This document shows positions 14,662 to 62,692 of a DNA stretch of 64,000 bases, in pieces (position 1 is the first letter of the stretch; each line of letters starts with the position of its first letter). The notes below the pieces were generated by a model. That model did not search any database. It saw only the letters and a program-made list of their open reading frames with translations, and was not told the origin of the DNA. Source of the DNA: a bacterium (GTDB lineage Bacteria > UBA8248). The stretch is taken from the NCBI GenBank assembly GCA_965221655.1, contig OZ244906.1, positions 2,608,009-2,672,008 on the forward strand, read 5' to 3'. The position numbers and the translations under genes were made by a program.

Positions 14662-15100
14662 TCAGGGACACCAGGGCTTGCGTCGTCTGCCCTTGTAGGG
14701 CCGCCCGTGGCCCGTGTCGATCATGATGCGGGCGAAGTCGCGTCCGTCGGCAAGTTTCACGTTCGCGCCCACGCGCTTGCCGAATTTGTCGTCCTTCACG
14801 CCGGTGAGGAGCACCTTGCCCCTCTTGCCCACGAGTTGCTTCGCGTAATCGCGCGCTGCCTCGCCGCGTCGGCGCTCCGCAGCGCACTTCGCCCCTCCGA
14901 TTTCGGGGCTGTCCATATGCAGCACGCGCACGTTGACGCGCACCGTCTGGCGCACCCATATCTTCGCTTCCACGTGGAGGGTGTCGCCGTCGATCACCCG
15001 CAGCACGGTTGCGGGCACGCGCAACTCGGCCGCGGCGGGCGTCGCGAACACCGACGCGGCGAACGCGAGAACGAGACACGCTGACTGAGGAGAAGAAAAC
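14662..15100 (-). CDS. thermonuclease (SNase-like) family secreted protein
   Basis: Staphylococcal-nuclease-like motifs (RVIDGDTL, DSPE, and conserved Arg and Glu) preceded by a signal-peptide-like segment. The start (TTG near 15100) is uncertain. Confidence 0.6.
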
Positions 15101-15152
15101 GGCGTACCCAAGGGTTTTCCCTTCTTGCAGATTCCAAAAGTTATAATTCTAT

Positions 15153-15181
15153 ATTTTATGGTTTTATAAAAAAATCTGCAA
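15153..15181 (-). promoter_or_regulatory. sigma70-like promoter for the thermonuclease gene (-35 TTGCAG, 17-bp spacer, -10 TAAAAT on the minus strand)
   Basis: Read directly in an AT-rich spacer. The reverse complement reads TTGCAG-N17-TAAAAT. Confidence 0.4.
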
Positions 15182-15467
15182 TTGATGAAGACAGGCGCTT
15201 CGTCTCGGCGCCGCCCCCGACCGCCTTTGGGCTTCACCCCGAACCGGGAGTCGAAAAGAGACCCGCGATGGAAAAACGCGTGGACACCGCCCTGGGTTGC
15301 GGCTTAAAGCAAGAATTTCTGCATGGGAAGCGGTTTGTGCGTCGTACAAGCCTTCGGGTGGGTCGGCGCGGCCCACGTGAAATGGATGGGGATGGGGTGC
15401 GTTGTGCGGCGTTCCGCTCGGCCGGGGTGGGCTTCTCCGTTTCTCGGGGAGGTGCGCGAGGTAGAGG

Positions 15468-15564
15468 TGGCGGGAACGCGTGGGAGTCGAACCCACCGAC
15501 GAAGTGATTAGCCCCGTCCACTGGATTTGAAGTCCAGGCGGCACACCGGCACCGATGCGCTCCC
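15468..15564 (-). tRNA. selC: tRNA-Sec (selenocysteine tRNA), anticodon UCA
   Basis: The minus-strand sequence GGGAGCGCATCGGTGCCGGTGTGCCGCCTGGACTTCAAATCCAGTGGACGGGGCTAATCACTTCGTCGGTGGGTTCGACTCCCACGCGTTCCCGCCA is 97 nt. It has an 8-bp acceptor stem (GGGAGCGC/GCGTTCCC), a CUUCAAA anticodon loop with anticodon UCA, a long variable arm, a 5-bp T stem with loop TTCGACT, and an encoded CCA. The CTGGACTTCAAATCCAG and GGTTCGACTCC blocks are nearly identical to E. coli selC. Confidence 0.85.
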
Positions 15565-15694
15565 GCGAGAAGGATACACCGCACGGGGCTGGTTCTGAAA
15601 GTGTGCCGGGCGTCTCGCCCGCGTGGTGCTTGTCCTGTGGGCGAGAAAACCCTACAACGAGACGCAACGCATTTTCACCAAAGGAGACGAAGGG

Positions 15695-16597
15695 ATGACG
15701 CAACGTGTGGGCATCGTGGGCATGGGGCTGATGGGCCAGGCCTTCATCAAGAACATGCGCGAGACGGGCTTCGATATACAGGGCTTCGACGTGGACCCCG
15801 CGCGCATGGACGATTTGCGCGCACAGGGCGGCGCGCCCGTCGCCACGCCCGCCGAGGCGGCCGGGGGCGTGAACTTCGTGATCACCTCTCTGCCCAACAG
15901 CACCATCGCCCGGGAGGCGACCCTGGGGGCGGGGGGCATCGCCGAGGGGGCGAAGGAGGGGCTGTACCACCTCGACACGACGACCTCGCGCCCCGAGGAT
16001 TCGGTGCGCCTCGCCGAAGACCTCTCCCGCCACGGAATCCGCTTTCTCGATTCCGCCGTGAGTGGCACGAGCACGATGGCCGTCCAAAAGGACCTGGTGG
16101 TCGTCGCGGGTGGGGAGGCGGAGGATTTCGACGCCTGCCGCGCCGTCTTCGCGGGCTTCAGCCGCGCGGCGTACTACATGGGACCCGTGGGCTCGGGGGC
16201 GCGCACGAAGCTGGTCATCAACATGATTCTGGCGGGCAATCGCCTGGCCCTGGCCGAGGGGCTGCTGCTCGGCACGAAGGTGGGCCTCGAGATGGATACC
16301 CTCCTCGAAGTTCTCAAGGACGGGGCGTGCTCTTCAAAGACGATGATCGACAAAGGCCCCAAGATGATTTATGGCGACTACTCCAAGCAGGGCCAGGTGA
16401 AGACCTCGCTCAAGGATTCGCGCCTGATGATCGAGCAGGGCCGCCTCCACGGCTCTCCCATGCTGATGACGAACCTCTGGTCCCAGGTCGTGCAGATGGC
16501 CTACGAGCGCGGCTACGCGGAGGAGGATACCGTCGCCTTCTACGAAGTCCTGCGCGAGATGGCGGGCCTGCCCCCGCGGATTGAGGGTGGAGGGTGA
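15695..16597 (+). CDS. NAD(P)-dependent beta-hydroxyacid dehydrogenase (HIBADH family)
   Basis: The RBS AAGGAGACGAAGGG precedes an ATG. VGIVGMGLMG motif, DSAVSG catalytic region, and a C-terminal helical domain. Confidence 0.85.
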   Translation: MTQRVGIVGMGLMGQAFIKNMRETGFDIQGFDVDPARMDDLRAQGGAPVATPAEAAGGVNFVITSLPNSTIAREATLGAGGIAEGAKEGLYHLDTTTSRPEDSVRLAEDLSRHGIRFLDSAVSGTSTMAVQKDLVVVAGGEAEDFDACRAVFAGFSRAAYYMGPVGSGARTKLVINMILAGNRLALAEGLLLGTKVGLEMDTLLEVLKDGACSSKTMIDKGPKMIYGDYSKQGQVKTSLKDSRLMIEQGRLHGSPMLMTNLWSQVVQMAYERGYAEEDTVAFYEVLREMAGLPPRIEGGG

Positions 16598-46538: not shown

Positions 46539-46825
46539 CGGGAAGCGGCTTGGAGAGCGGCGTCGTGTGGCTCGTTTCGGTTCCCTTCGCTATTTCCGTG
46601 CTCGTTTGCGAAGGCTTTTTCCACTTGCGCTCGGATAAGTAGGCGCACTGCCCGAAAGACGCGCATGTGCGGCTTTTCGGCGCGCATCGTCCCGTCTGCG
46701 GCCTTCGTCTTGTTATCCCCAAAATCGATGTTGTATGGTTCGTTTTTTCCATATTGACGTATTTCGTAGTAGTTTGCGGCGTGGCCTGGAGGCGCCGCCG
46801 CCTCGTTCGAGAAAGGAGCCGTCCC

Positions 46826-47977
46826 TTGGATTTCGAATTGAACGAATTGCAAGAGAGTGTCCGCCGGATGATGAAAGACTTCGTGGAGCGCGAGGTCCTG
46901 CCCATCGCCATGGAATATGAACTCGCCGACAAGTACCCCACGCCCGCCGTGGAGAAGATGAAGGAACTCGGTTTTTTCGGCTTCACGATACCTGAGGAAT
47001 ACGGCGGGAGCGGCATGGACGAGGTGTGTTACGCTATCGCCATGGAGGAGCTTTCCGTCGGCTGGATGAGCGTGGCGGGTATTCTGGGCACGCACATGAT
47101 GACCGCCTGGATGCTCCTTCACTACGGAACCGACGAGCAGAAAAAAGCCTACCTCCCCAAGATGGCGACCGGCGAGTGGCGCTCGGGCATGGCGCTCACC
47201 GAGCCGGGCTCGGGCTCAGACGCCGCCGCTCTCAAGACCCGCGCGGTGCGCGAAGACGACCAGTGGGTGATGAACGGCTCGAAGATGTACATCTCGAACG
47301 CCGAGCACGGCACCATGTTCAGCGTCTTCGCGCGCACCGACCCGGAAAAACCCAAGGCGCGGGGCATTTCCTGCATCCTCGTCCACAAGGGAACGCCCGG
47401 GTTCCGAGTCAGCCGGCACCTCAAGAAGATGGGCTACCGCGGCATTCGCACGAGCGAGTTGGTGTTCGAGGACGCGCGCGTGCCGCTCGAGAATCTTTTG
47501 GGAGAGGAGAATGCGGGTTTCCCGATGATCATGAGCGCCTTGGAGGGCGGCCGCATCAACGTGGCGGCGCGCAGCGTGGGGCTGGCGCGGGCGGCGTTCG
47601 AGGATTCGATGCGCTACGCACAGCAGCGCGAAACCTTCGGCAAGCCGCTGGCCGGACACCAGTTGATACAGGCGAAACTCGCCGAGATGGGAACGCGCAT
47701 CCACGCGGCGAAGCTGATGACCTACCACGCGGCGAACCTCAAGTCTCAGGGCAAACGCTGCGACCTGGAGGCCGGCATGGCCAAGTTCTTCGCTTCGGAG
47801 ACCGCCGAATTCTGTGCGAGCGAGGCTATTCAGGTGCACGGCGGCATGGGCTACATTCAGGAGTTGCCCGTAGAGCGCTATTTCAGGGACTCGAAACTTC
47901 TGGTGGTGGGCGAGGGGTCGAACGAGATTCAGCGCCTCATTATCGCCAAGAGGCTTTTGGAGCTCTACCCGGCCTGA
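46826..47977 (+). CDS. acyl-CoA dehydrogenase
   Basis: The RBS AAAGGAG precedes a TTG start. Full ACAD three-domain layout with a conserved catalytic Glu region near the C-terminus (YIQE..). Confidence 0.85.
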   Translation: MDFELNELQESVRRMMKDFVEREVLPIAMEYELADKYPTPAVEKMKELGFFGFTIPEEYGGSGMDEVCYAIAMEELSVGWMSVAGILGTHMMTAWMLLHYGTDEQKKAYLPKMATGEWRSGMALTEPGSGSDAAALKTRAVREDDQWVMNGSKMYISNAEHGTMFSVFARTDPEKPKARGISCILVHKGTPGFRVSRHLKKMGYRGIRTSELVFEDARVPLENLLGEENAGFPMIMSALEGGRINVAARSVGLARAAFEDSMRYAQQRETFGKPLAGHQLIQAKLAEMGTRIHAAKLMTYHAANLKSQGKRCDLEAGMAKFFASETAEFCASEAIQVHGGMGYIQELPVERYFRDSKLLVVGEGSNEIQRLIIAKRLLELYPA

Positions 47978-50135: not shown

Positions 50136-50280
50136 CCCAGTGCCCCGAATGCCGACGTGCCCCGGTGGTCGAGAAGCGGATTTTTGAGCGGCGGAACAAA
50201 GCAGCGAAAGGCAACCCCGATTTTCCGACCAGCCCTGCGTGCGCAGCGGTTGGTTTTTTCATTCACGCGAGAGCATACCT

Positions 50281-51522
50281 GTGGAATTCTTCAAGGTCGT
50301 ATCGCCCGAAGAAGCGCGGCGCCAGCTGGAGGGCTTTCGCCCGCTGGGAGAGGAGAGTGTTTCTTCTTTCGACGCGGTGGGCCGCGTCCTGGCCCGGGAG
50401 GTGTGCTCCCCGGTCGATCTGCCCGATTTCCCCCGGGCCACGATGGACGGCTACGCGCTTCGGGCGGCGGATTCATTCGGTGCGAGCGAATCCATTCCCG
50501 CCTATCTCGACATCAAAGGCCAGGTTCCCATGGGGGCCGCTCCCGGGTTCGCCCTCGAGCGGAGCGAGGCGGCGCGCGTCCTCACCGGAGGCATGATTCC
50601 CGAGGGCGCCGACGCGGTGGTGATGGAGGAGTTCACCTCCGCGCCCGATCCGCAAACCCTGGAGGTCAGACGGCCCGTCGCCGTGGGCGAGAACGTTCTG
50701 GGGGTTGGTGACGACATCAAGGCGGGCGAGGCAATTCTGCGGGCGGGCTTTCGCCTCAGAAGCCAGGACGTCGGCGCCCTCGCCGGCGTCGGCATCACGT
50801 CGGTGACGGTGCATCGCCGCCCCCGGGTGGCGATACTGCCCACGGGGGACGAACTCGTCGACCCAAGCCGAACGCCCGGCACGGGCCAAGTGCGCGACAT
50901 CAATCGCTTCTCCCTGGCGGCGGGTGTGGTCGAGGCGGGCGGCGTGCCCGAAACCGCCGACATCCTCCCCGACGACCTGGCCCTCATCAAGGAACGCCTC
51001 GAAGAGGCCGTTCGCCGCGCGGACGTCGTGCTCATCTCGGGGGGCAGCTCCATGGGTCTGCGCGACTATACGGTCGAGGCCGTCGACGCACTCGGGGAGC
51101 CGGGCGTTTTGGTGCACGGCATATCCATCAAGCCCGGCAAGCCGACCATCATCGGGCGCGTTGTCAAAGACGGGGAGGACAAGGCCGTCATCGGCATTCC
51201 GGGGCATCCCGTCTCGGCTCTCATGATTTTTCACGCCTTCGTTCGACCCGTTATCCGGCAATTGAGCGGGGAGACCCTGCGGGCGGAAACGGCTCCCGAG
51301 AGTCTGGCGGCCACCCTTTCAAGAAACGTGGCCTCTGCCCCCGGACGCGAGGACATGATTCGGGTCTCGCTCGCCCCGGGCGAGAACGGACGCATCGCCC
51401 ACCCTCTGATGGGCAATTCCGCGATGATATCCACCATGACGAAGGCCGACGGCTACATCACCGTGCCCCTCGAGGCCGAAGGGTTGCCCGAAGGAGCGCG
51501 GGTGCGCGTACATCTGTATTGA
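50281..51522 (+). CDS. moeA: molybdopterin molybdotransferase MoeA
   Basis: Complete MoeA four-domain layout including the MoCF-biosynthesis domain (GDEL, ISGGSSMG). The start (GTG 50281 versus the track start 50239) is uncertain. Confidence 0.85.
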   Translation: MEFFKVVSPEEARRQLEGFRPLGEESVSSFDAVGRVLAREVCSPVDLPDFPRATMDGYALRAADSFGASESIPAYLDIKGQVPMGAAPGFALERSEAARVLTGGMIPEGADAVVMEEFTSAPDPQTLEVRRPVAVGENVLGVGDDIKAGEAILRAGFRLRSQDVGALAGVGITSVTVHRRPRVAILPTGDELVDPSRTPGTGQVRDINRFSLAAGVVEAGGVPETADILPDDLALIKERLEEAVRRADVVLISGGSSMGLRDYTVEAVDALGEPGVLVHGISIKPGKPTIIGRVVKDGEDKAVIGIPGHPVSALMIFHAFVRPVIRQLSGETLRAETAPESLAATLSRNVASAPGREDMIRVSLAPGENGRIAHPLMGNSAMISTMTKADGYITVPLEAEGLPEGARVRVHLY

Positions 51523-51662
51523 TGGAAAGCAGGGCGTCTGGATGTTTTTCTTCTGAAGCCTCCACATCTCCTCCTCGCCGCTTACGGCCGGCCTCGCCAT
51601 GGCAATCCGGCCTGCCTGCGCCTATAATCGTCTTTTTCGTTCAGTGGAACGGGGCAAAGCGG

Positions 51663-53612
51663 ATGAGCGATTTACTTCCGGTCGCTGGGGGCCGGAAAAT
51701 CTATTTGGAAAACGTTCCGCGCGAGGAGGCGCTCACGCGCCTTTTGGAGAAAGTGAGCACCCTGCGTCTCGAAGAAGAGGAAGTTCCCACGCCCGAGGCG
51801 CTCGGGCGCGTAACGGCGCGCGCGGCCTATGCCCGAATTTCCAGCCCGCACTTTCATGCCGCCGCCATGGACGGCTACGCCCTCGACGCGGCGCAGACCT
51901 CCGGCGCCACGCCCGTCACCCCGAAAGAATTCGCCCTCGGCGCGCAAGCCCACCCCCTCGACACGGGCGATCCGCTGCCCGTGGGAACCGATTGCGTCGT
52001 CATGATCGAGCACGTGCACGAGGCGACTCCCGGCGCGATTCGTATCGAGGCGGCGCTCTCGCCCTGGCAAAACGTGCGCGTGGCGGGAGAAGACGTCGTC
52101 GAGGGCCAGCTTCTCCTCACCGCGGGCCACGTGTTGCGGCCCTATGATCTGGGCGCTCTTCTCGCGGCAGGCCTCACGCGGGTATGGGTGCGCAAGCGTC
52201 CGCGGGTCGCCGTCATCCCCACGGGAGACGAACTCGTCGAGGCAGGCTCGGCTCTAGCGCCCGGCGATCTGGTGGAGTTCAACTCCGTTGTCCTCTCCGC
52301 CTTCATCACCGAGTGGGGGGGGGAGGCGCTCCCCGGCCCGATACGCGCGGACAGGTTCGAGGCCATCGAGGACGCCGTTCGCGACGCTCTGGAGAGTGCC
52401 GACATTGTCTTGGTGAACGCGGGTTCCTCCGCGGGGCGCGAAGACCACACTGCCGCCGTCGTCGAAAGACTCGGGGAAGTTCTGGTGCACGGCGTGGCCA
52501 TCTTTCCCGGCAAGCCCACTATCCTCGGCGTTTGCCGCGCGAAGTCGGGTGCGCGCAAGCCCGTACTCGGGATTCCGGGCTATCCGGTTTCGGCGGCACT
52601 GGCGCTTCGCGAGTTTGTGCGTCCCCTCATGGCGCATATGGCGGGCGCGACGCCCGGGGAGGAGGAGCGCATTCGCGCCTTCATGAGCCGCAAAAGCCCT
52701 TCTCGGCTCGGCATGGAGGAGTTTTTGCGCGTGAAGATCGGCCAGGTGGGCGAGCGCATGATTTGCCTGCCCGCCAAGCGCGGGGCCAGCGTCATCAGTT
52801 CACTCGTAGAGGCCGACGGCGTGGTGCGCGTTTCCCCCCAAGTGGAGGGAATCGAGACGGGCGAAGAGGTCTCGGTCGAATTGTTGCGGCCGCTCTCCGA
52901 GATTCGGAGCAACGTACTCATGGCGGGCAGCCACGACAACGCGCTCGACTTGCTGGCGGAGGAGCTGAGAAAACGCCACCGCGACGCGCGCCTTTGCACC
53001 TCGGCGGTGGGTTCGCTGGCAGGCCTCATCGCCGTGCGCGACGGCGAGGCGCACGTGGCGGGCAGCCACCTGCTCGACGTACGGACGGGAGACTACAACT
53101 GGCCCTACGTCCGGCGCTATCTCAAGGGGCGCGACGTCTTGGTGGTGAATTTCGTGCGCAGGGAGCAGGGCATCATCACACCCCCGGGAAACCCCAAGGG
53201 CATCGAGCAAATATCCGACCTCGCGCGCGAGGACGTGGCCATCGTGAACCGCCAGAGCGGAGCGGGCACGCGGGTGCTGCTGGATCACTTGATGGAGCGC
53301 CACGACCTCTCGCCCGCGGACGTTGCGGGCTACGAGCGGGTGGAGACGACCCACATGTCGGTGGCCATGGCGGTGGCGGCCGGGCGTGCGGACTGCGGTT
53401 TGGGGATATTCGCCGCCGCGCGTTTGCTGAACCTCGACTTCATTCCCCTGGAGTGGGAGCGCTTCGATTTGGTCGTGCCGCGAGAGCATTGGGAGACGCC
53501 TGCGCTGCGCAAGGTGATGGAGGTTTTGCACGACGCCGCCTTTCGAGGTGCCGTGGAGGCGTTGGGCGGGTATAATACGGAATGGACGGGCAGGGTGCTG
53601 ACCGAACCCTAG
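51663..53612 (+). CDS. MoeA-family molybdotransferase fused to a C-terminal periplasmic-binding-protein-like (molybdate/tungstate-binding type) domain
   Basis: N-terminal 400 aa are MoeA-like (PTGDELVEAG, NAGSSAGRED). C-terminal 250 aa resemble a type-II periplasmic-binding-protein fold. The ATG at 51663 follows a TATAAT box at 51622. Confidence 0.75.
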   Translation: MSDLLPVAGGRKIYLENVPREEALTRLLEKVSTLRLEEEEVPTPEALGRVTARAAYARISSPHFHAAAMDGYALDAAQTSGATPVTPKEFALGAQAHPLDTGDPLPVGTDCVVMIEHVHEATPGAIRIEAALSPWQNVRVAGEDVVEGQLLLTAGHVLRPYDLGALLAAGLTRVWVRKRPRVAVIPTGDELVEAGSALAPGDLVEFNSVVLSAFITEWGGEALPGPIRADRFEAIEDAVRDALESADIVLVNAGSSAGREDHTAAVVERLGEVLVHGVAIFPGKPTILGVCRAKSGARKPVLGIPGYPVSAALALREFVRPLMAHMAGATPGEEERIRAFMSRKSPSRLGMEEFLRVKIGQVGERMICLPAKRGASVISSLVEADGVVRVSPQVEGIETGEEVSVELLRPLSEIRSNVLMAGSHDNALDLLAEELRKRHRDARLCTSAVGSLAGLIAVRDGEAHVAGSHLLDVRTGDYNWPYVRRYLKGRDVLVVNFVRREQGIITPPGNPKGIEQISDLAREDVAIVNRQSGAGTRVLLDHLMERHDLSPADVAGYERVETTHMSVAMAVAAGRADCGLGIFAAARLLNLDFIPLEWERFDLVVPREHWETPALRKVMEVLHDAAFRGAVEALGGYNTEWTGRVLTEP

Positions 53613-53614
53613 CA

Positions 53615-54622
53615 ATGCTGAAGCCGAGGATGCGAAAGATGGGTTTGTCTGATCGATACGGAAGAAACCACGACGATTTGCGAATCTCGGTGACGGACAG
53701 GTGTAACTTCCGCTGTTTCTACTGCATGCCCGAAGAAGGCATGACGTGGCTGCCGCACGAGGAGATTCTCGATTACGAGGAGATAGCCCGCTTGGTGCGC
53801 ATTACCACCGAGCTGGGTTTCGTGAGCTACCACCTCACGGGCGGCGAGCCGCTCCTGCGCAAGGATATCCACCGCCTCGTCGAGCAGATGGTCGAGATTC
53901 AGCCCGAAATGGACTTGGCTCTGACGACCAACGGCGTCCTGCTCCCCCAGATGGCGAAGGATTTGTACGCTGCGGGCCTTCGGCGCGTGAACATCAGCCT
54001 CGATTCGCTCGATGCGGGCAAGTTTCTGTTCATGACGCGCCGCGACGTGTTCGGCCAGGTCATGGAGGGTATCGAGGCGGCGGCCGAGGCGGGTTTTTCG
54101 CCCATCAAGATCAACGCGGTGGCCGTGAAAGGACTCACCGAGGAGGAGTTGCCGCGCTTCGCCAGGTGGTCGCGCGAGACGGGCCACGTCGTGCGTTTCA
54201 TCGAATACATGCCGCTCGACGCGGACCAGACCTGGGAGCACGAGAAGGTGCTCACTGCCGAGGAGATACTTGAGGGCCTTTCCGTGGAGGGAGAGCTCGA
54301 ACTCGTGAGCGGCCATCCCTCCGACCCCGCCACGCGCTACCGCTACCGCGACGGCAAGGGCGAGGTAGGCGTCATCGCCTCGGTAACCCGGCCTTTCTGC
54401 AAGGATTGCAACCGGATTCGCCTCACGGCGGACGGCATGGTGCGCACCTGCCTGTTCTCCAGCGTCGAGTACAACGTGAAGGAGATGCTCCGGGGCGGGG
54501 CATCGGATGAGGCGATCAAGGAGTGGCTCGCCGAGGTGGTGCTCACCAAGACGCCGGGTCACCTCATCGGCCAGGAAGAATTCACCCAGCCCGCGCGCAC
54601 CATGAGCGCCATCGGCGGCTAG
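53615..54622 (+). CDS. moaA: GTP 3',8-cyclase MoaA (radical SAM)
   Basis: CNFRCFYC radical-SAM cluster motif and the C-terminal auxiliary-cluster cysteines (CKDCNRIRLTADGMVRTCLF). Confidence 0.9.
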   Translation: MLKPRMRKMGLSDRYGRNHDDLRISVTDRCNFRCFYCMPEEGMTWLPHEEILDYEEIARLVRITTELGFVSYHLTGGEPLLRKDIHRLVEQMVEIQPEMDLALTTNGVLLPQMAKDLYAAGLRRVNISLDSLDAGKFLFMTRRDVFGQVMEGIEAAAEAGFSPIKINAVAVKGLTEEELPRFARWSRETGHVVRFIEYMPLDADQTWEHEKVLTAEEILEGLSVEGELELVSGHPSDPATRYRYRDGKGEVGVIASVTRPFCKDCNRIRLTADGMVRTCLFSSVEYNVKEMLRGGASDEAIKEWLAEVVLTKTPGHLIGQEEFTQPARTMSAIGG

Positions 54623-60619: not shown

Positions 60620-61218
60620 GAATCGTTCTGGCGAGCGGCAACCCCGGAAAGGCCCGCGAGGTGCGCGCCGCTCTGGGGGGAGTGGACGTCGAGTTGCTGA
60701 CCCCTGCCGAGGCGGGCATCGTCTTCGAGGTCGAAGAGACCGGCGACACCTACGCACAAAACGCGCTTATCAAGGCACAGGCCGCCTGTGCGGCGAGTGG
60801 CCTGCCCGCCCTCGCGGATGATTCGGGGGTGGAGGTCGATGCCCTGCCCGACGCACTCGGGGTGCGCTCGGCGCGCTTCGGCGGCGAGGGATTGGACGAC
60901 GCGGGCCGCAACGCGCTTTTACTCGAAAGGATGCGCGAGGTGCCCGCGGAGCGGCGCGGTGCGCTCTACGTCTGCGTGCTGGCCTACGTGAAGCCGAGCG
61001 GCTGGTTCGGCTTTTTCGAGGGCACACTCGCGGGAGAAATACTACACGCGCCGCGGGGTGCGGGCGGCTTCGGCTACGACCCGCTGATGTATCTTCCCGC
61101 GCACGGCTGCACGGTCTCTGAGCTTCCTCTCGAGGTCAAGAACCGCATCAGCCACCGCGGCTGCGCTCTTGCCGCTTTTCGGAGTTGGCTGGCCCGGGAG
61201 AAAGAGATCGGGCGATAA
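60616..61218 (+). CDS. rdgB: non-canonical purine NTP pyrophosphatase RdgB/HAM1 family
   Basis: GTG start overlaps the rph stop (GTGA). Motifs [17 protein letters not shown] and GFGYDP are typical of RdgB. Confidence 0.85.
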
Positions 61219-61324
61219 TGAGGAGACCCAAGATCGGGCCGCACGCCACCGGGCGGAAGCGGCCGCTGCCCATCACTACGGCGGCCCGTGCCGAGCGGGA
61301 TGCGCCAGACAGGAGACTTTGTGT

Positions 61325-62002
61325 ATGTCCAGGATAGGTATGATCCAGCCCGAAGACGCGGATGCCGACGTGGCGCGCTTCTATGAGGCGACCACCGCCA
61401 TGCTGGGCCGCGTTCCGCATTCGATGCGGGTGCTTGCAAGAAGCCCCCACGTCGCCAAGACGATGCTGCCCTTCGTGGCGACGCTCCAGCGCGAGGGCGG
61501 GGGCAGCGTGCTGACCTCCAGGATCAAGGAGATGGTGGTTATCAAGACCAGCCATCTCAACGGGTGTGCTTACTGATACGCCCACAACACGTCGCTTGGT
61601 CAAGCGGCGGGCATTACCCCCGAGCAGGTAGAGGCCATCGGGACGGACGGCTACATGGAGTCGGGCCTGTTCACTCCGAGGGAGAAAGCGGCCATCCTCT
61701 GGGCCGAGCACGTCACGCTGAACACCGCACGCTCGCGGGACGACGTGTTCGAGGAGGTGCAGAAACATTTTTCCGAAGCGGAAATCGTCGAGCTCACGAT
61801 GGTGAGCGGGTTGTTCAATCTCTTCAACCGCTACATGGATTCTCTCGGCATCCCGCTCGAGGAGCAGAGTGAGGTCGACAAGATCAAGAAATCCCTGCGC
61901 CTCGACGGCAACAAGGTGAAGACCTACTACGAGACGATGGTGACCCACTGGCCGAGCGCGTACCCCGAGCCCGACGCCGGGGACCCGAACAAGAACGGGT
62001 GA
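61325..62002 (+). CDS. AhpD-like / carboxymuconolactone decarboxylase family selenoprotein. The in-frame TGA at 61574..61576 is proposed to encode selenocysteine (transl_except), replacing the second Cys of the NGCxYC..H redox motif.
   Basis: The RBS AGGAG sits 9 nt upstream of the ATG at 61325. The N-terminal 83 aa end in ...VIKTSHLNGCAY, then comes TGA. The same frame continues without an ATG as YAHNTSLG...EREKAAILWAEHVTLN...EIVELTMVSGLFNLFNRY, the conserved CMD C-terminal half. The track reports the second half only from an internal Met at 61655. Confidence 0.65.
61591..61608 (+). ncRNA. candidate bacterial SECIS hairpin (7-bp stem, GGUC apical loop) 15 nt downstream of the in-frame UGA
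   Basis: GTCGCTT-GGTC-AAGCGGC read directly. The loop G/U lie at +25/+27 from the UGA, similar to the E. coli fdhF SECIS geometry (+23/+24). Confidence 0.4.
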
Positions 62003-62197
62003 GGCCCGCCGCGCGCGGGACGCCGCTCAAAGGGGCGTGCGCGCCTTGCGCCGCGTCGTTTCTCTGGAACCTGCCGCGTTGGGATGGAGGCGCGAGACGC
62101 CTCGTTTGGATGGGCGTGAAGCCTTTGCTGGAAATCCGCCGCGCGAATCGTTCATAATGGGCGCACCGTTTGTTCTGCCTTCCGACGAGGGTTTCGG

Positions 62198-62692
62198 ATG
62201 AAGGGTGTCCTGTGTGTCCTGTGTGTCCTGGTGGCGCTCGTCTCTCTTCTCGCCCCCTTTTCCAGGGCCGAAGCGGAGGGGGAGTTGCGCTGCCGGACTC
62301 GCTACACCATCCTGAACGGCTTTTTGGTGGAGCAGAACGTGCGCATCACCCTTCCTGCCGAGAAGCGCGATTTGGCCGTGTGGCTGGTGGAAAAGAAAAC
62401 GGGCGCGTTCAAGAAGCTGGCCTATCCCATCGGGGGAGAGGGGAGGTTGCGTATCTCGCAGCCCTTCGATAAGAAGAAATACGTCGAATACCCCTTCATT
62501 CTCACCTGGCAGCCCTTTGGCGGCTTTCGCCTCACGGGGTTTTTCCTCTCGAGAAGGCACGCGCACACCGTCGTCGTGCGCGAGTCGAAAAACAGCGCGT
62601 CCGGCGCGCAGGCAAAGAGAATTATCGAGATTTTCCCCCCGTTTCCGGGGCACCTCTCCTCCAAGCTGGCGCAGGGGGAATGCGACAAGTGA
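62198..62692 (+). CDS. hypothetical secreted protein
   Basis: The signal peptide MKGVLCVLCVLVALVSLLAPFSRAEA with an AXA cleavage site is the basis for the secreted call. The 164-aa mature region has no recognised motif. Confidence 0.45.
   Translation: MKGVLCVLCVLVALVSLLAPFSRAEAEGELRCRTRYTILNGFLVEQNVRITLPAEKRDLAVWLVEKKTGAFKKLAYPIGGEGRLRISQPFDKKKYVEYPFILTWQPFGGFRLTGFFLSRRHAHTVVVRESKNSASGAQAKRIIEIFPPFPGHLSSKLAQGECDK

What the first reader, a model, noticed from the sequence alone, without database searches (positions are those of the whole stretch)
61325..62002. Split AhpD-like/CMD-family gene is a selenoprotein: in-frame TGA at the second redox-cysteine position, plus a candidate SECIS
The ORF track shows two same-frame ORFs (61169..61576 and 61655..62002) separated only by TGA at 61574-61576. 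The upstream part ends ...SHLNGCAY. In the CMD/AhpD 'peroxidase-related' core motif NGCxYC...H, that is exactly one residue before the second catalytic Cys. The frame immediately after the TGA continues with the conserved downstream half of the domain (YAHNT..., ...REKAAILWAEHVT..., ...EIVELT..SGLFNLFNRY), with no start codon needed. A 7-bp hairpin with a GGUC apical loop begins 15 nt after the UGA. A tRNA-Sec gene is present in the same window. AhpD-like proteins are a recognised bacterial selenoprotein family, but standard gene callers truncate or split them. The catalytic residue here would be Sec paired with a resolving Cys (C..U).
Basis: partly seen in the sequence, partly recalled or inferred. 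Interest (0 to 1): 0.8.

Follow-up and report, generated by a model that had tools for sequence, protein, structure and literature searches.

The report
AhpD-like selenoprotein gene with SECIS
The two "split" ORFs are one 225-codon gene for an AhpD-like redox protein whose in-frame TGA encodes selenocysteine; the call is sound, but this selenoprotein family has been known since 2005, so it matters mainly as an annotation fix.

Summary
The observation and the interpretation both hold. Window 61325-62002 (+) is one reading frame with a single in-frame TGA at 61574-61576. That codon sits at the second Cys of the AhpD/CMD motif, giving C81-A-Y-U84-x-x-H87. It is Cys in 89 full-length protein homologues. 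At the DNA level it is TGA in 73 and TGC/TGT in 23 of 96 sites, across at least eight bacterial groups (33-71% GC). Sixteen Nitrospinota orthologues keep the TGA with no indels, and dN/dS is about 0.1 on both sides. The hairpin at 61590-61609 (GGUC tetraloop) is frozen at synonymous sites only in TGA forms. Used as bait with the codon left free, it found TGA in 108 of 108 metagenome hits. A tRNA-Sec gene lies at 15468-15564 (-), and TGA is a normal stop for other genes in the window. selA, selB and selD are not in the window, and the rest of the genome could not be searched. "AhpD-like protein, CxxU" has been a published selenoprotein family since 2005. It is abundant in marine metagenomes and is listed in BSepDB (2026), which also ranks Nitrospinota-labelled MAGs among the most selenoprotein-rich bacteria. 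Verdict: a correct call and a new member of a known kind. Interest is low to moderate. The biochemical substrate is unknown.

The parts
61325..62002 (+). Complete selenoprotein gene: 225 codons plus the TGA stop at 62000-62002. It encodes an AhpD-like / CMD-family protein.
   Evidence: Single frame with one internal TGA. Pfam CMD 36.4 bits over aa 59-128, spanning the TGA. 16 orthologues of identical length, dN/dS 0.106 upstream and 0.132 downstream of the TGA.
61311..61315 (+). Shine-Dalgarno-like AGGAG, 9 nt upstream of ATG 61325.
   Evidence: Read directly from the sequence. The start position is shared by all close orthologues.
61529..61531 (+). Glu69 codon (GAG). It aligns with Glu36 of the PA0269 proton relay.
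   Evidence: Invariant in the family alignments. Aligned to the PA0269 'LIELV' Glu (PMC3141380).
61565..61567 (+). Cys81 codon (TGT), the first residue of the C-A-Y-U redox motif and the proposed resolving Cys.
   Evidence: Column is Cys in 107 of 118 aligned homologues. Invariant in A2 and A5.
61574..61576 (+). UGA codon 84, read as selenocysteine, at the position of the second Cys of CxxC.
   Evidence: Column is Cys in 89 protein homologues. TGA in 73 and TGC/TGT in 23 of 96 DNA sites. TGA in 108 of 108 hairpin-baited metagenome hits.
61583..61585 (+). His87 codon (CAC), an invariant His three residues after Sec.
   Evidence: His in 118 of 118 aligned homologues.
61590..61609 (+). SECIS hairpin: stem CGUCGCUU/AAGCGGCG, loop GGUC (61598-61601). 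There are 21 nt between the UGA and the loop.
   Evidence: Part of the minimum-free-energy and centroid fold. About -11.5 kcal/mol for the 28-nt core. Synonymous sites are frozen only in Sec forms. 84.7% of cells are paired, against 25-59% in slid registers and 53.4% in Cys forms.
15468..15564 (-). tRNA-Sec gene (selC), anticodon TCA.
   Evidence: ARAGORN. Rfam RF01852, 74.8 bits, E = 1.6e-13.
62039..62056 (+). Weak terminator-like hairpin followed by a T-rich tail, 37 nt after the stop codon.
   Evidence: Consensus scan only: 2 sites found where 0.9 are expected. Low weight.

Best explanation
Window 61325-62002 encodes one 225-residue AhpD-like (CMD superfamily) thiol/selenol oxidoreductase. 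UGA codon 84 is recoded to selenocysteine.

**Recoding (inferred from conservation).** While the ribosome approaches the UGA, the mRNA hairpin 13 nt downstream presents a GGUC tetraloop, with 21 nt between the UGA and the loop. SelB-GTP carrying Sec-tRNA(Sec) would bind this loop. The tRNA is the product of the selC gene at 15468-15564. Sec would then be delivered in competition with release factor 2.

**Catalysis (inferred by homology).** The product carries C81-A-Y-U84 at the N-terminus of the second helix of the conserved AhpD helix-turn-helix. Glu69 and His87 complete the relay. By analogy with M. tuberculosis AhpD, where the second, exposed Cys attacks the oxidised partner, Sec84 is proposed to be the attacking nucleophile. 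Cys81 would then resolve the mixed selenenylsulfide into an intramolecular Se-S bond, which an upstream reductant re-reduces.

**Shown:** the single frame, the Sec/Cys alignment, purifying selection across the TGA, the exclusive link between hairpin and TGA, the tRNA-Sec gene, and the AhpD-like fold of a 63%-identical Cys-form homologue.

**Inferred:** SelB binding, actual selenium insertion, the roles of U84 and C81, and the substrate, which is unknown.
For: - Frame and motif.
- Family matches spanning the TGA: Pfam CMD 36.4 bits (cutoff 23); TIGR01926 70.9 bits over aa 7-179; weak hits to NCBIfam models named '(seleno)protein'.
- U column is Cys in 89 of 118 aligned homologues. Another 16 show 'W', and every one checked is a TGA mistranslated by a gene caller.
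- 96 DNA sites: 73 TGA and 23 Cys codons, from Nitrospinota, Acidimicrobiia, Burkholderiales, SAR324, Tectomicrobia, Rhodospirillales, Chthoniobacterales and Methyloligellaceae, at 33-71% GC.
- 16 orthologues are all 678 nt with TGA at codon 84. dN/dS is 0.106 upstream and 0.132 downstream.
- Third-position entropy at codons +6 to +10 is 0.39/0.00/0.11/0.11/0.27 bits in 66 Sec forms, against 0.91/1.19/0.93/0.43/1.34 in 23 Cys forms that encode the same or a similar peptide.
- Hairpin cells paired: 84.7% in Sec forms, 53.4% in Cys forms, 25-59% in slid registers.
- All 29 sequence variants fold to a GGUC (once GGAC) tetraloop hairpin. There is one compensatory change in the lower stem (L032 against L084), and the apical pair changes from U-A to C-G in a neighbouring paralogue that has GGUC at the same distance.
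- Hairpin bait with the codon left free: 108 of 108 TGA.
- tRNA-Sec is present.
- TGA ends Pfam-complete genes elsewhere in the window, for example 50239-51522 and 46667-47977, so it is not reassigned.
- The AlphaFold model of Cys-form P0005 (pLDDT 91.7) matches AhpD-like structures 6K40, 2PRR, 3C1L and 2OYO. The best sequence match in PDB is PA0269, with the same C-A-Y-C tetrapeptide (PMC3141380).
- Literature: AhpD-like CxxU selenoproteins (PMC1088965, PMC2398784); Nitrospinota-labelled MAGs with 48-54 selenoproteins, including the source of L084 (PMC13326102); Cys133 as the attacking residue (PMC6626918).
Against: - No selA, selB or selD among the 20 large ORFs scanned in the window. The rest of the genome was not available.
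- No Rfam family matches the hairpin.
- The local fold energy is not exceptional (z = 0.12).
- Covariation statistics within the family are null because the stem is frozen rather than compensating.
- The outermost pair forms in only 16 of 59 sequences.
- The His is at U+3, not at the +4 position seen in PA0269 and M. tuberculosis AhpD.
- No AhpC/peroxiredoxin neighbour is conserved, so the physiological partner is unknown.
- In B. thailandensis AhpD the first Cys was reported as the more important one (PMC6626918). The nucleophile assignment therefore does not hold across all AhpD proteins.
- No protein-level or selenium-labelling data exist.
Confidence: 0.9

Rival explanations
1. Pseudogene or assembly/sequencing error: the TGA is a nonsense mutation or a miscalled base in what was a Cys-type AhpD-like gene.
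For: Gene callers split the gene into 83-aa and 124-aa ORFs in every close relative. One relative (P0011/L096) has TTA at this codon on a 2.4x-coverage contig, so single-base differences at this site do occur.
Against: The TGA is identical in 73 genome loci and 108 metagenome contigs from independent assemblies. There are no indels, and dN/dS is 0.13 downstream of the TGA. A dedicated downstream hairpin is conserved only with the TGA.
Confidence: 0.01
2. UGA is read as a standard amino acid (Trp or Gly, as in genetic codes 4 and 25, or near-cognate Cys/Trp read-through) and not as selenocysteine.
For: Public gene calls translate the same codon as W in 16 homologues. No selA/selB/selD was seen in the window.
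Against: TGA terminates many Pfam-complete genes in this window. The aligned residue in homologues is the catalytic Cys, never a TGG-encoded Trp in any locus checked. A tRNA-Sec gene is present. The hairpin has the loop and spacing of a bacterial SECIS.
Confidence: 0.03
3. Two separate products: translation stops at UGA84 to give an 83-residue peptide, and the C-terminal half is made on its own from ATG 61655 or an upstream alternative start.
For: Both halves are callable ORFs. Sec insertion in bacteria is inefficient (1-3% read-through is quoted in PMC8659212), so some truncated product is likely.
Against: Codons 85-110, between the TGA and ATG 61655, are conserved in frame with dN below dS (0.074 against 0.286). 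They encode invariant family residues (H87, N88, G92, G96). The Pfam domain and the AhpD helix-turn-helix span the TGA. Cys-form homologues are single chains.
Confidence: 0.03

Closest known systems
AhpD-like selenoprotein family (Zhang, Fomenko & Gladyshev 2005 Sargasso Sea; 'AhpD-like 1', COG2128, in the 2008 GOS study; 'AhpD-like protein' in BSepDB 2026)
   Same: CMD/AhpD-type domain, CxxU redox motif with Sec at the second position, many Cys homologues, a bacterial SECIS directly after the UGA, and abundance in marine bacteria (PMC1088965: 27 genes; PMC2398784: 299 Sec and 902 Cys genes).
   Different: I could not compare directly with the published sequences or test the COG2128 assignment. 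Whether this 225-aa form belongs to 'AhpD-like 1' or 'AhpD-like 2' is therefore not settled. The form has His at U+3 and a C-terminal extension of about 45 aa with invariant Y201 and W209.
PA0269 of Pseudomonas aeruginosa (PDB 2O4D/2IJC/7XW1), AhpD-like protein
   Same: Best sequence match among solved structures (E = 3e-17). Same NGC-A-Y-C tetrapeptide and same Glu on the preceding helix. Weak peroxidase activity was shown in vitro (PMC3141380).
   Different: PA0269 has Cys where this protein has Sec, is 145 aa long, has His at +4, and lacks both the N-terminal ~55 aa and the C-terminal extension.
Mycobacterium tuberculosis AhpD (PDB 1GU9/1LW1)
   Same: CxxC on a helix-turn-helix with a Glu/His proton relay. 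The second Cys (Cys133) is the exposed nucleophile that attacks AhpC Cys61 (PMC6626918), and that is the position Sec occupies here.
   Different: Very distant in sequence and topology (Foldseek E about 1). M. tuberculosis ahpD lies next to ahpC, and no ahpC neighbour is found here.
Single-chain 'peroxidase-related' AhpD-like proteins (TIGR01926; PDB 6K40, 2OYO, 2PRR, 2PFX, 3C1L)
   Same: Best structural matches to the model of the Cys-form homologue (TM 0.73-0.83 on the target). The TIGR01926 profile aligns end to end (aa 7-179).
   Different: The score falls below NCBIfam's curated cutoff (70.9 for the window protein and 81.1 for P0005, against 81.8). There is an extra C-terminal segment of about 45 aa.
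Escherichia coli fdhF SECIS
   Same: Hairpin inside the coding sequence just after the UGA, with a small apical loop carrying G and U for SelB (G23/U24 in fdhF, PMC8659212). From my memory of the fdhF sequence, its loop is also GGUC.
   Different: The loop lies one codon further from the UGA (G26/U27, counting the U of UGA as 1). There is no bulged U on the 5' strand; a U-G wobble sits nearby (pair 61592-61607), or a 3' bulge in some variants.

Membership tests
Bacterial selenoprotein gene (UGA recoded by SelB/SECIS) | In-frame UGA that aligns with Cys in homologues, with a conserved coding sequence on both sides | tested here: met
   Cys in 89 homologues. 73 TGA and 23 TGY among 96 DNA sites. 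dN/dS 0.106 and 0.132 on the two sides.
Bacterial selenoprotein gene (UGA recoded by SelB/SECIS) | Stem-loop immediately downstream of the UGA, with a small apical loop containing G at a suitable distance | tested here: met
   7-8 bp stem, GGUC loop, 21 nt between UGA and loop. Frozen only in Sec forms. 108 of 108 TGA in the reverse search. The bSECISearch numeric limits (16-37 nt, 3-14 nt loop) are from my memory and were not run. No Rfam model matched.
Bacterial selenoprotein gene (UGA recoded by SelB/SECIS) | tRNA-Sec (selC) in the genome | tested here: met
   15468-15564 (-): ARAGORN, and Rfam RF01852 at 74.8 bits.
Bacterial selenoprotein gene (UGA recoded by SelB/SECIS) | selA, selB and selD in the genome | not testable with these tools
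   Only 64 kb is available. None of the 20 large ORFs scanned is SelA, SelB or SelD. Lineage-level support only: BSepDB lists Nitrospinota-labelled MAGs with 48-54 selenoproteins (PMC13326102).
Bacterial selenoprotein gene (UGA recoded by SelB/SECIS) | Selenium actually incorporated at the UGA position | not testable with these tools
   Needs 75Se labelling or mass spectrometry.
AhpD-like selenoprotein family (CxxU; Zhang & Gladyshev) | CxxU motif in a CMD/AhpD-type domain | tested here: met
   C81-A-Y-U84. The Pfam CMD match spans it. The motif is listed as CXXU in PMC1088965 and PMC2398784.
AhpD-like selenoprotein family (CxxU; Zhang & Gladyshev) | Assignment to COG2128 (AhpD-like 1), or to pfam02627 only (AhpD-like 2) | not tested
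   No COG library was available, and the published example sequences could not be fetched.
Pfam CMD (PF02627) | Score at or above the gathering threshold | tested here: met
   36.4 bits against 23; aa 59-128.
NCBIfam TIGR01926 peroxidase-related enzyme | Score at or above the curated cutoff of 81.8 bits | tested here: not met
   70.9 bits for the window protein with U written as C. Cys-form P0005 scores 81.1, and all 24 family members match at E <= 1e-5. This is a borderline sister group rather than a member by NCBI's rule.
NCBIfam NF053654 (YciW-related selenoprotein) and NF041238 (AhpD_rel_CFYUT selenoprotein) | Equivalog cutoffs of 310 and 175 bits | tested here: not met
   69.5 and 45.5 bits.
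AhpD (functional, M. tuberculosis / PA0269 type) | Glu, Cys-x-x-Cys and His proton-relay residues on a helix-turn-helix | tested here: inconclusive
   E69, C81, Y83, U84 and H87 are invariant. Helices 65-79 and 82-94 are present in the model. His is at +3 rather than +4 relative to the second Cys/Sec. The geometry was not inspected.
AhpD (functional, M. tuberculosis / PA0269 type) | Genetic or functional link to AhpC/peroxiredoxin | tested here: not met
   Neighbours are RNase PH, Ham1/RdgB, an RND pump and a TIM-barrel protein. No partner is shared across clades.
AhpD-like fold | All-helical AhpD-like fold | tested here: met
   Tested on a proxy only: Cys-form P0005, 63% identical, pLDDT 91.7. 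Foldseek top hits are 6K40, 2PRR, 3C1L and 2OYO, probability 1.00.

The most novel reading that the evidence does not exclude
This roughly 225-residue CxxUxxH form may be a distinct AhpD-like subfamily. It carries a conserved C-terminal extension and falls just under every curated NCBIfam cutoff. In it, Sec rather than Cys may be the prevailing state. Its 20-nt SECIS core has stayed base-for-base identical across at least eight bacterial groups and 33-71% GC, which suggests either an unusually strict SelB-RNA fit or repeated horizontal transfer of the gene together with its SECIS. Its substrate may not be AhpC at all, because no peroxiredoxin neighbour is conserved and the fold also resembles the debrominase Bmp8. 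Tandem-domain (Sec plus dead domain) and adjacent-paralogue versions point to an expanding gene family in marine bacteria.
Probability: 0.3. Interest if true: 0.45.

Novelty: new member of a known kind. Interest (0 to 1): 0.25.

Why it matters
The practical value is in annotation. In public records this gene is either split into 83-aa and 124-aa ORFs or translated with Trp at the catalytic position, so the catalytic residue and half of the domain are lost. The fixed bait CAYAAYACGTCGCTTGGTCAAGCGGC, placed 6 nt after a TGA, finds family members with no false positives in this test (108 of 108). It could be used to repair such records. Biologically, the gene adds one more selenoenzyme to a lineage already reported to be selenoprotein-rich, and it supplies a clean natural set of Sec and Cys forms for studying why Sec is kept at the attacking position of a CxxC redox centre. 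It does not open a new class of system.

Tried and rejected
- **Rfam.** The whole window at gathering thresholds, and 61500-61700 at E <= 10, gave no SECIS-type hit; only tRNA-Sec and two noise hits. Rfam apparently has no model that fits this element.
- **Thermodynamic significance.** For the 86-nt region z = 0.12, not significant in this GC-rich context.
- **Covariation statistics.** On 59 unique Sec sequences they do not exceed the shuffles, because the stem does not vary. I rely instead on the Sec/Cys contrast and the reverse search.
- **Sec machinery.** 20 large ORFs were scanned with Pfam and none is SelA, SelB or SelD.
- **Structure of the window protein.** I used the 63%-identical Cys homologue P0005 as a proxy.
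- **Conserved partner gene.** Clustering of neighbours over about 97 loci found only clade-specific synteny.
- **First motif regex.** It had the wrong Cys-His spacing and found nothing. It was replaced by an alignment.
- **Considered and rejected.** Code 4/25 reassignment (TGA is a normal stop here), pseudogene, and two independent genes.
Full report
**1. What is in the sequence**

Window 61325-62002 (+) translates as one 225-codon frame with a single internal stop, TGA at 61574-61576 (codon 84). The real start is ATG 61325, preceded by AGGAG at 61311-61315. All 16 close orthologues start at the same place, with MSRI or MSRV. The peptide around the stop is KTSHLNGCAY-[TGA]-YAHNTSLGQAAG. A tRNA-Sec gene lies at 15468-15564 (-), found by ARAGORN and by Rfam RF01852 at 74.8 bits against a gathering score of 47.

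Downstream of the TGA, RNAfold places CGUCGCUU-GGUC-AAGCGGCG (61590-61609) in both the minimum-free-energy and the centroid structures.

**2. Is the TGA a coding position?**

With U written as C, the protein matches Pfam CMD (36.4 bits, cutoff 23) over residues 59-128, across the TGA. It also matches NCBIfam TIGR01926 'peroxidase-related enzyme' end to end (aa 7-179, 70.9 bits).

In an alignment with the 120 best database homologues, the U column is Cys in 89, Trp in 16, and Ser or Leu in 12. The first Cys and the His three residues after U are almost invariant.

The 'Trp' proteins are an artefact. All ten loci I fetched for four of them have TGA at that codon, read as W by metagenome gene callers. 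Three 124-aa hits at 85-87% identity are the downstream halves of orthologues, split in the same way and in the same gene order: RND pump, RNase PH, Ham1, an 83-aa ORF, then a 124-aa ORF.

A DNA alignment of these orthologues has no gaps and an invariant TGA.

**3. Breadth and selection**

A scan of one genome per species returned 80 loci. Together with the earlier loci, there are 96 motif sites, of which 73 carry TGA and 23 carry TGC or TGT.

- TGA forms occur in MAGs labelled Nitrospinota, Acidimicrobiia, Burkholderiales, SAR324, Tectomicrobia, Rhodospirillales, Chthoniobacterales and Methyloligellaceae, over 33-71% GC.
- The closest relatives (85-90% protein identity, same synteny) are Nitrospinota-labelled MAGs, so the window most likely comes from that lineage.
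- Across 16 such orthologues, all 678 nt long, dN/dS is 0.106 for codons 1-83 and 0.132 for codons 85-225.
- The stretch between the TGA and the first downstream ATG also has dN below dS (0.074 against 0.286).

The downstream half is therefore translated in this frame as part of the same protein. A pseudogene, a sequencing error and two independent genes are all excluded.

TGA is not reassigned in this genome. It ends many genes in the window whose Pfam matches run to the end of the profile. This gene is also the only place where coding signal continues across a TGA inside a gene.

**4. The hairpin as a SECIS**

The 86-nt region is not more stable than shuffled sequence (z = 0.12), and no Rfam family matches it. 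The evidence is comparative.

- **Frozen synonymous sites.** In 66 unique Sec-form sequences, the third positions of codons +6 to +10 (S-L-G-Q-A) have entropies of 0.39, 0.00, 0.11, 0.11 and 0.27 bits. L-G-Q is written CTT GGT CAA in essentially every one, even in genomes of 33-44% GC where neighbouring codons have moved to AT-rich synonyms. In 23 Cys forms that encode the same or a similar peptide, the values are 0.91, 1.19, 0.93, 0.43 and 1.34 bits.
- **Pairing.** The proposed pairs form in 84.7% of cells in Sec forms. This compares with 25-59% when the 3' strand is slid, and 53.4% in Cys forms, where the apical U-A pair never forms.
- **Covariation.** Within the family it is null, because the stem does not vary, and I do not claim it. 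The outermost pair forms in only 16 of 59 sequences.
- **Variants.** All 29 sequence variants still fold to a GGUC (once GGAC) tetraloop on a CUU/AAG apex. The Ala-for-Ser variants use a one-base 3' bulge and a shifted lower stem, with one compensatory difference: L032 has CCGCC/GGCGG and L084 has CCACC/GGUGG.
- **Paralogue.** A neighbouring paralogous gene in Rhodospirillales-type loci has its own in-frame TGA. Its GGUC loop sits at the same distance from the UGA, with the apical pair changed from U-A to C-G.
- **Reverse test.** I searched metagenome contigs for TAY-NNN-N6-CAYAAYACGTCGCTTGGTCAAGCGGC, leaving the codon after Tyr free. All 108 matches have TGA there.

The hairpin and the TGA are therefore exclusively linked.

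The geometry fits a bacterial SECIS: a hairpin inside the coding sequence, a small apical loop with G and U, and 21 nt between UGA and loop. In E. coli fdhF the critical loop bases are G23 and U24 (PMC8659212). Here the equivalent bases are G26 and U27, one codon further from the UGA. That the fdhF loop is also GGUC is from my memory of the sequence.

**5. What the protein is**

The best sequence match among solved structures is P. aeruginosa PA0269 (2O4D, E = 3e-17). It has the same NGC-A-Y-C tetrapeptide and a Glu on the preceding helix that aligns with Glu69. PA0269 has weak peroxidase activity in vitro, and its relay is described as Glu36, Cys48, Tyr50, Cys51 and His55 (PMC3141380).

The window protein could not be submitted for structure prediction. 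I modelled the 63%-identical Cys-form homologue P0005 instead. The model has pLDDT 91.7 and is all-helical, with helices 65-79 and 82-94 flanking the motif. Foldseek places it with D. radiodurans AhpD (6K40), with 2PRR, 3C1L and 2OYO, and with the debrominase Bmp8.

In M. tuberculosis AhpD the second Cys (Cys133) is the exposed residue that forms the disulfide with AhpC Cys61 (PMC6626918). Sec occupies that position here. The likely chemistry is attack by the Sec84 selenolate, resolution by Cys81, and re-reduction by an unknown donor.

Two differences from canonical AhpD should be noted:

- The invariant His is at U+3, not +4.
- No ahpC or peroxiredoxin gene is nearby, and no neighbour is shared across clades.

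The substrate is therefore unknown. One paper also reports that the first Cys is the more important one in another AhpD (PMC6626918).

**6. Comparison with what is known**

- 'AhpD-like protein' with a CXXU motif (COG2128) was reported as a new selenoprotein family in the Sargasso Sea data in 2005, with 27 genes and a predicted SECIS (PMC1088965).
- In the Global Ocean Sampling data, 'AhpD-like 1' was the fourth most abundant family, with 299 Sec genes and 902 Cys homologues. There was also an 'AhpD-like 2' (pfam02627, CxxU) (PMC2398784).
- BSepDB (2026) lists the family. It also ranks Nitrospinota-labelled MAGs (GTDB UBA8248) among the bacteria with the most selenoprotein genes (48-54). One of these is FO_M_Nitrospinota_01, the source of my locus L084 (PMC13326102).
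- By NCBIfam's curated cutoffs this subfamily is not a member of TIGR01926 (70.9 bits for the window protein and 81.1 for P0005, against 81.8). It is not a member of the two '(seleno)protein' equivalogs either. It does pass Pfam CMD.

I could not test which of the published AhpD-like groups it belongs to.

**7. What remains open**

selA, selB and selD are not in the window, and the rest of the genome was out of reach. Selenium insertion, SelB binding and the catalytic roles are inferred and have not been shown.

**8. Verdict**

This is a true selenoprotein gene of a known family, in a lineage already reported as selenoprotein-rich. I rate it a new member of a known kind, with interest about 0.25.

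The most novel reading still open is that this CxxUxxH form, with its C-terminal extension, its base-for-base frozen SECIS across phyla, and its tandem-domain and paralogue offshoots, is a distinct Sec-dominated subfamily with a substrate other than AhpC. I give that a probability of about 0.3 and an interest of about 0.45 if true.

Noticed in passing
L005-L014 (e.g. L005 2080-2739; L012 1621-2265); proteins P0015, P0017, P0027, P0043: 16 of the 120 best protein-database homologues show Trp at the Sec column. In all ten loci fetched for four of them the codon is TGA, so public gene calls read it as W under an alternative genetic code. This is a systematic database artefact for the family.
   Followed up: yes
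L095 164-1567 (+); proteins P0001-P0004, P0010, P0016, P0024, P0038, P0039, P0046, P0061: The 330-365-aa 'homologues' are 5'-truncated calls of a tandem-domain gene. L095 is one 467-codon frame. Its first domain has NSCAY-TGA-LAHNTALGQ plus the same hairpin. Its second, full-length domain has Ala and Ser where C and U would be, so it is a Sec domain fused to a catalytically dead copy.
   Followed up: partly
L008 336-1031 (-), L006 351-1046 (-), L007 161-856 (-), L012 929-1588 (+): Rhodospirillales-type loci carry a second, paralogous AhpD-like gene next to the first. It also has an in-frame TGA (NGCAY-TGA-TGHNETLGRAL) and a hairpin ACGCUC-GGUC-GGGCGU. The GGUC loop is at the same distance from the UGA, and the apical pair is C-G instead of U-A.
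   Followed up: partly
L096 1123-1821 (+); protein P0011: One relative has TTA (Leu) at the Sec codon while keeping the hairpin intact, on a contig with 2.4x coverage. This is either a sequencing error or a very recent inactivating mutation.
   Followed up: partly
L046+L080, L059+L076, L060+L085: Several Nitrospinota MAGs (PW3.concoct.202, ODZ_NOB7a, ETNP2_MAG_82) each hold two Sec-containing paralogues of this gene on different contigs.
   Followed up: no
window 61595-61705 (protein residues 91-127): The PDB sequence search lists dozens of TAL-effector repeat proteins at E of 1e-8 to 1e-12 for the stretch LGQAAGITPEQVEAIG..., but with no stretch passing on its own. These look like many weak matches to the TPEQVVAI repeat summed together, not homology.
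   Followed up: no
window 62198-62692 (+), repeat at 62205-62229: A 164-aa ORF with a signal-peptide-like N-terminus and no Pfam match lies downstream. It is conserved in the same position in the Nitrospinota clade. Its first codons contain a 9-nt tandem repeat, GTGTGTCCT, which encodes VLCVLCVL.
   Followed up: no
window 14662-16597: The tRNA-Sec gene stands apart from any Sec-machinery gene. It is flanked by a 191-aa ORF with no Pfam match (14662-15237, -) and a 3-hydroxyisobutyrate-dehydrogenase-like gene (15623-16597, +).
   Followed up: partly
window 50239-54622 (+): There is a molybdenum-cofactor biosynthesis cluster: MoeA (50239-51522), a MoeA fused to a periplasmic-binding-protein-like domain (51519-53612) and MoaA (53582-54622). 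No molybdo- or seleno-enzyme such as formate dehydrogenase was seen among the ORFs scanned.
   Followed up: no
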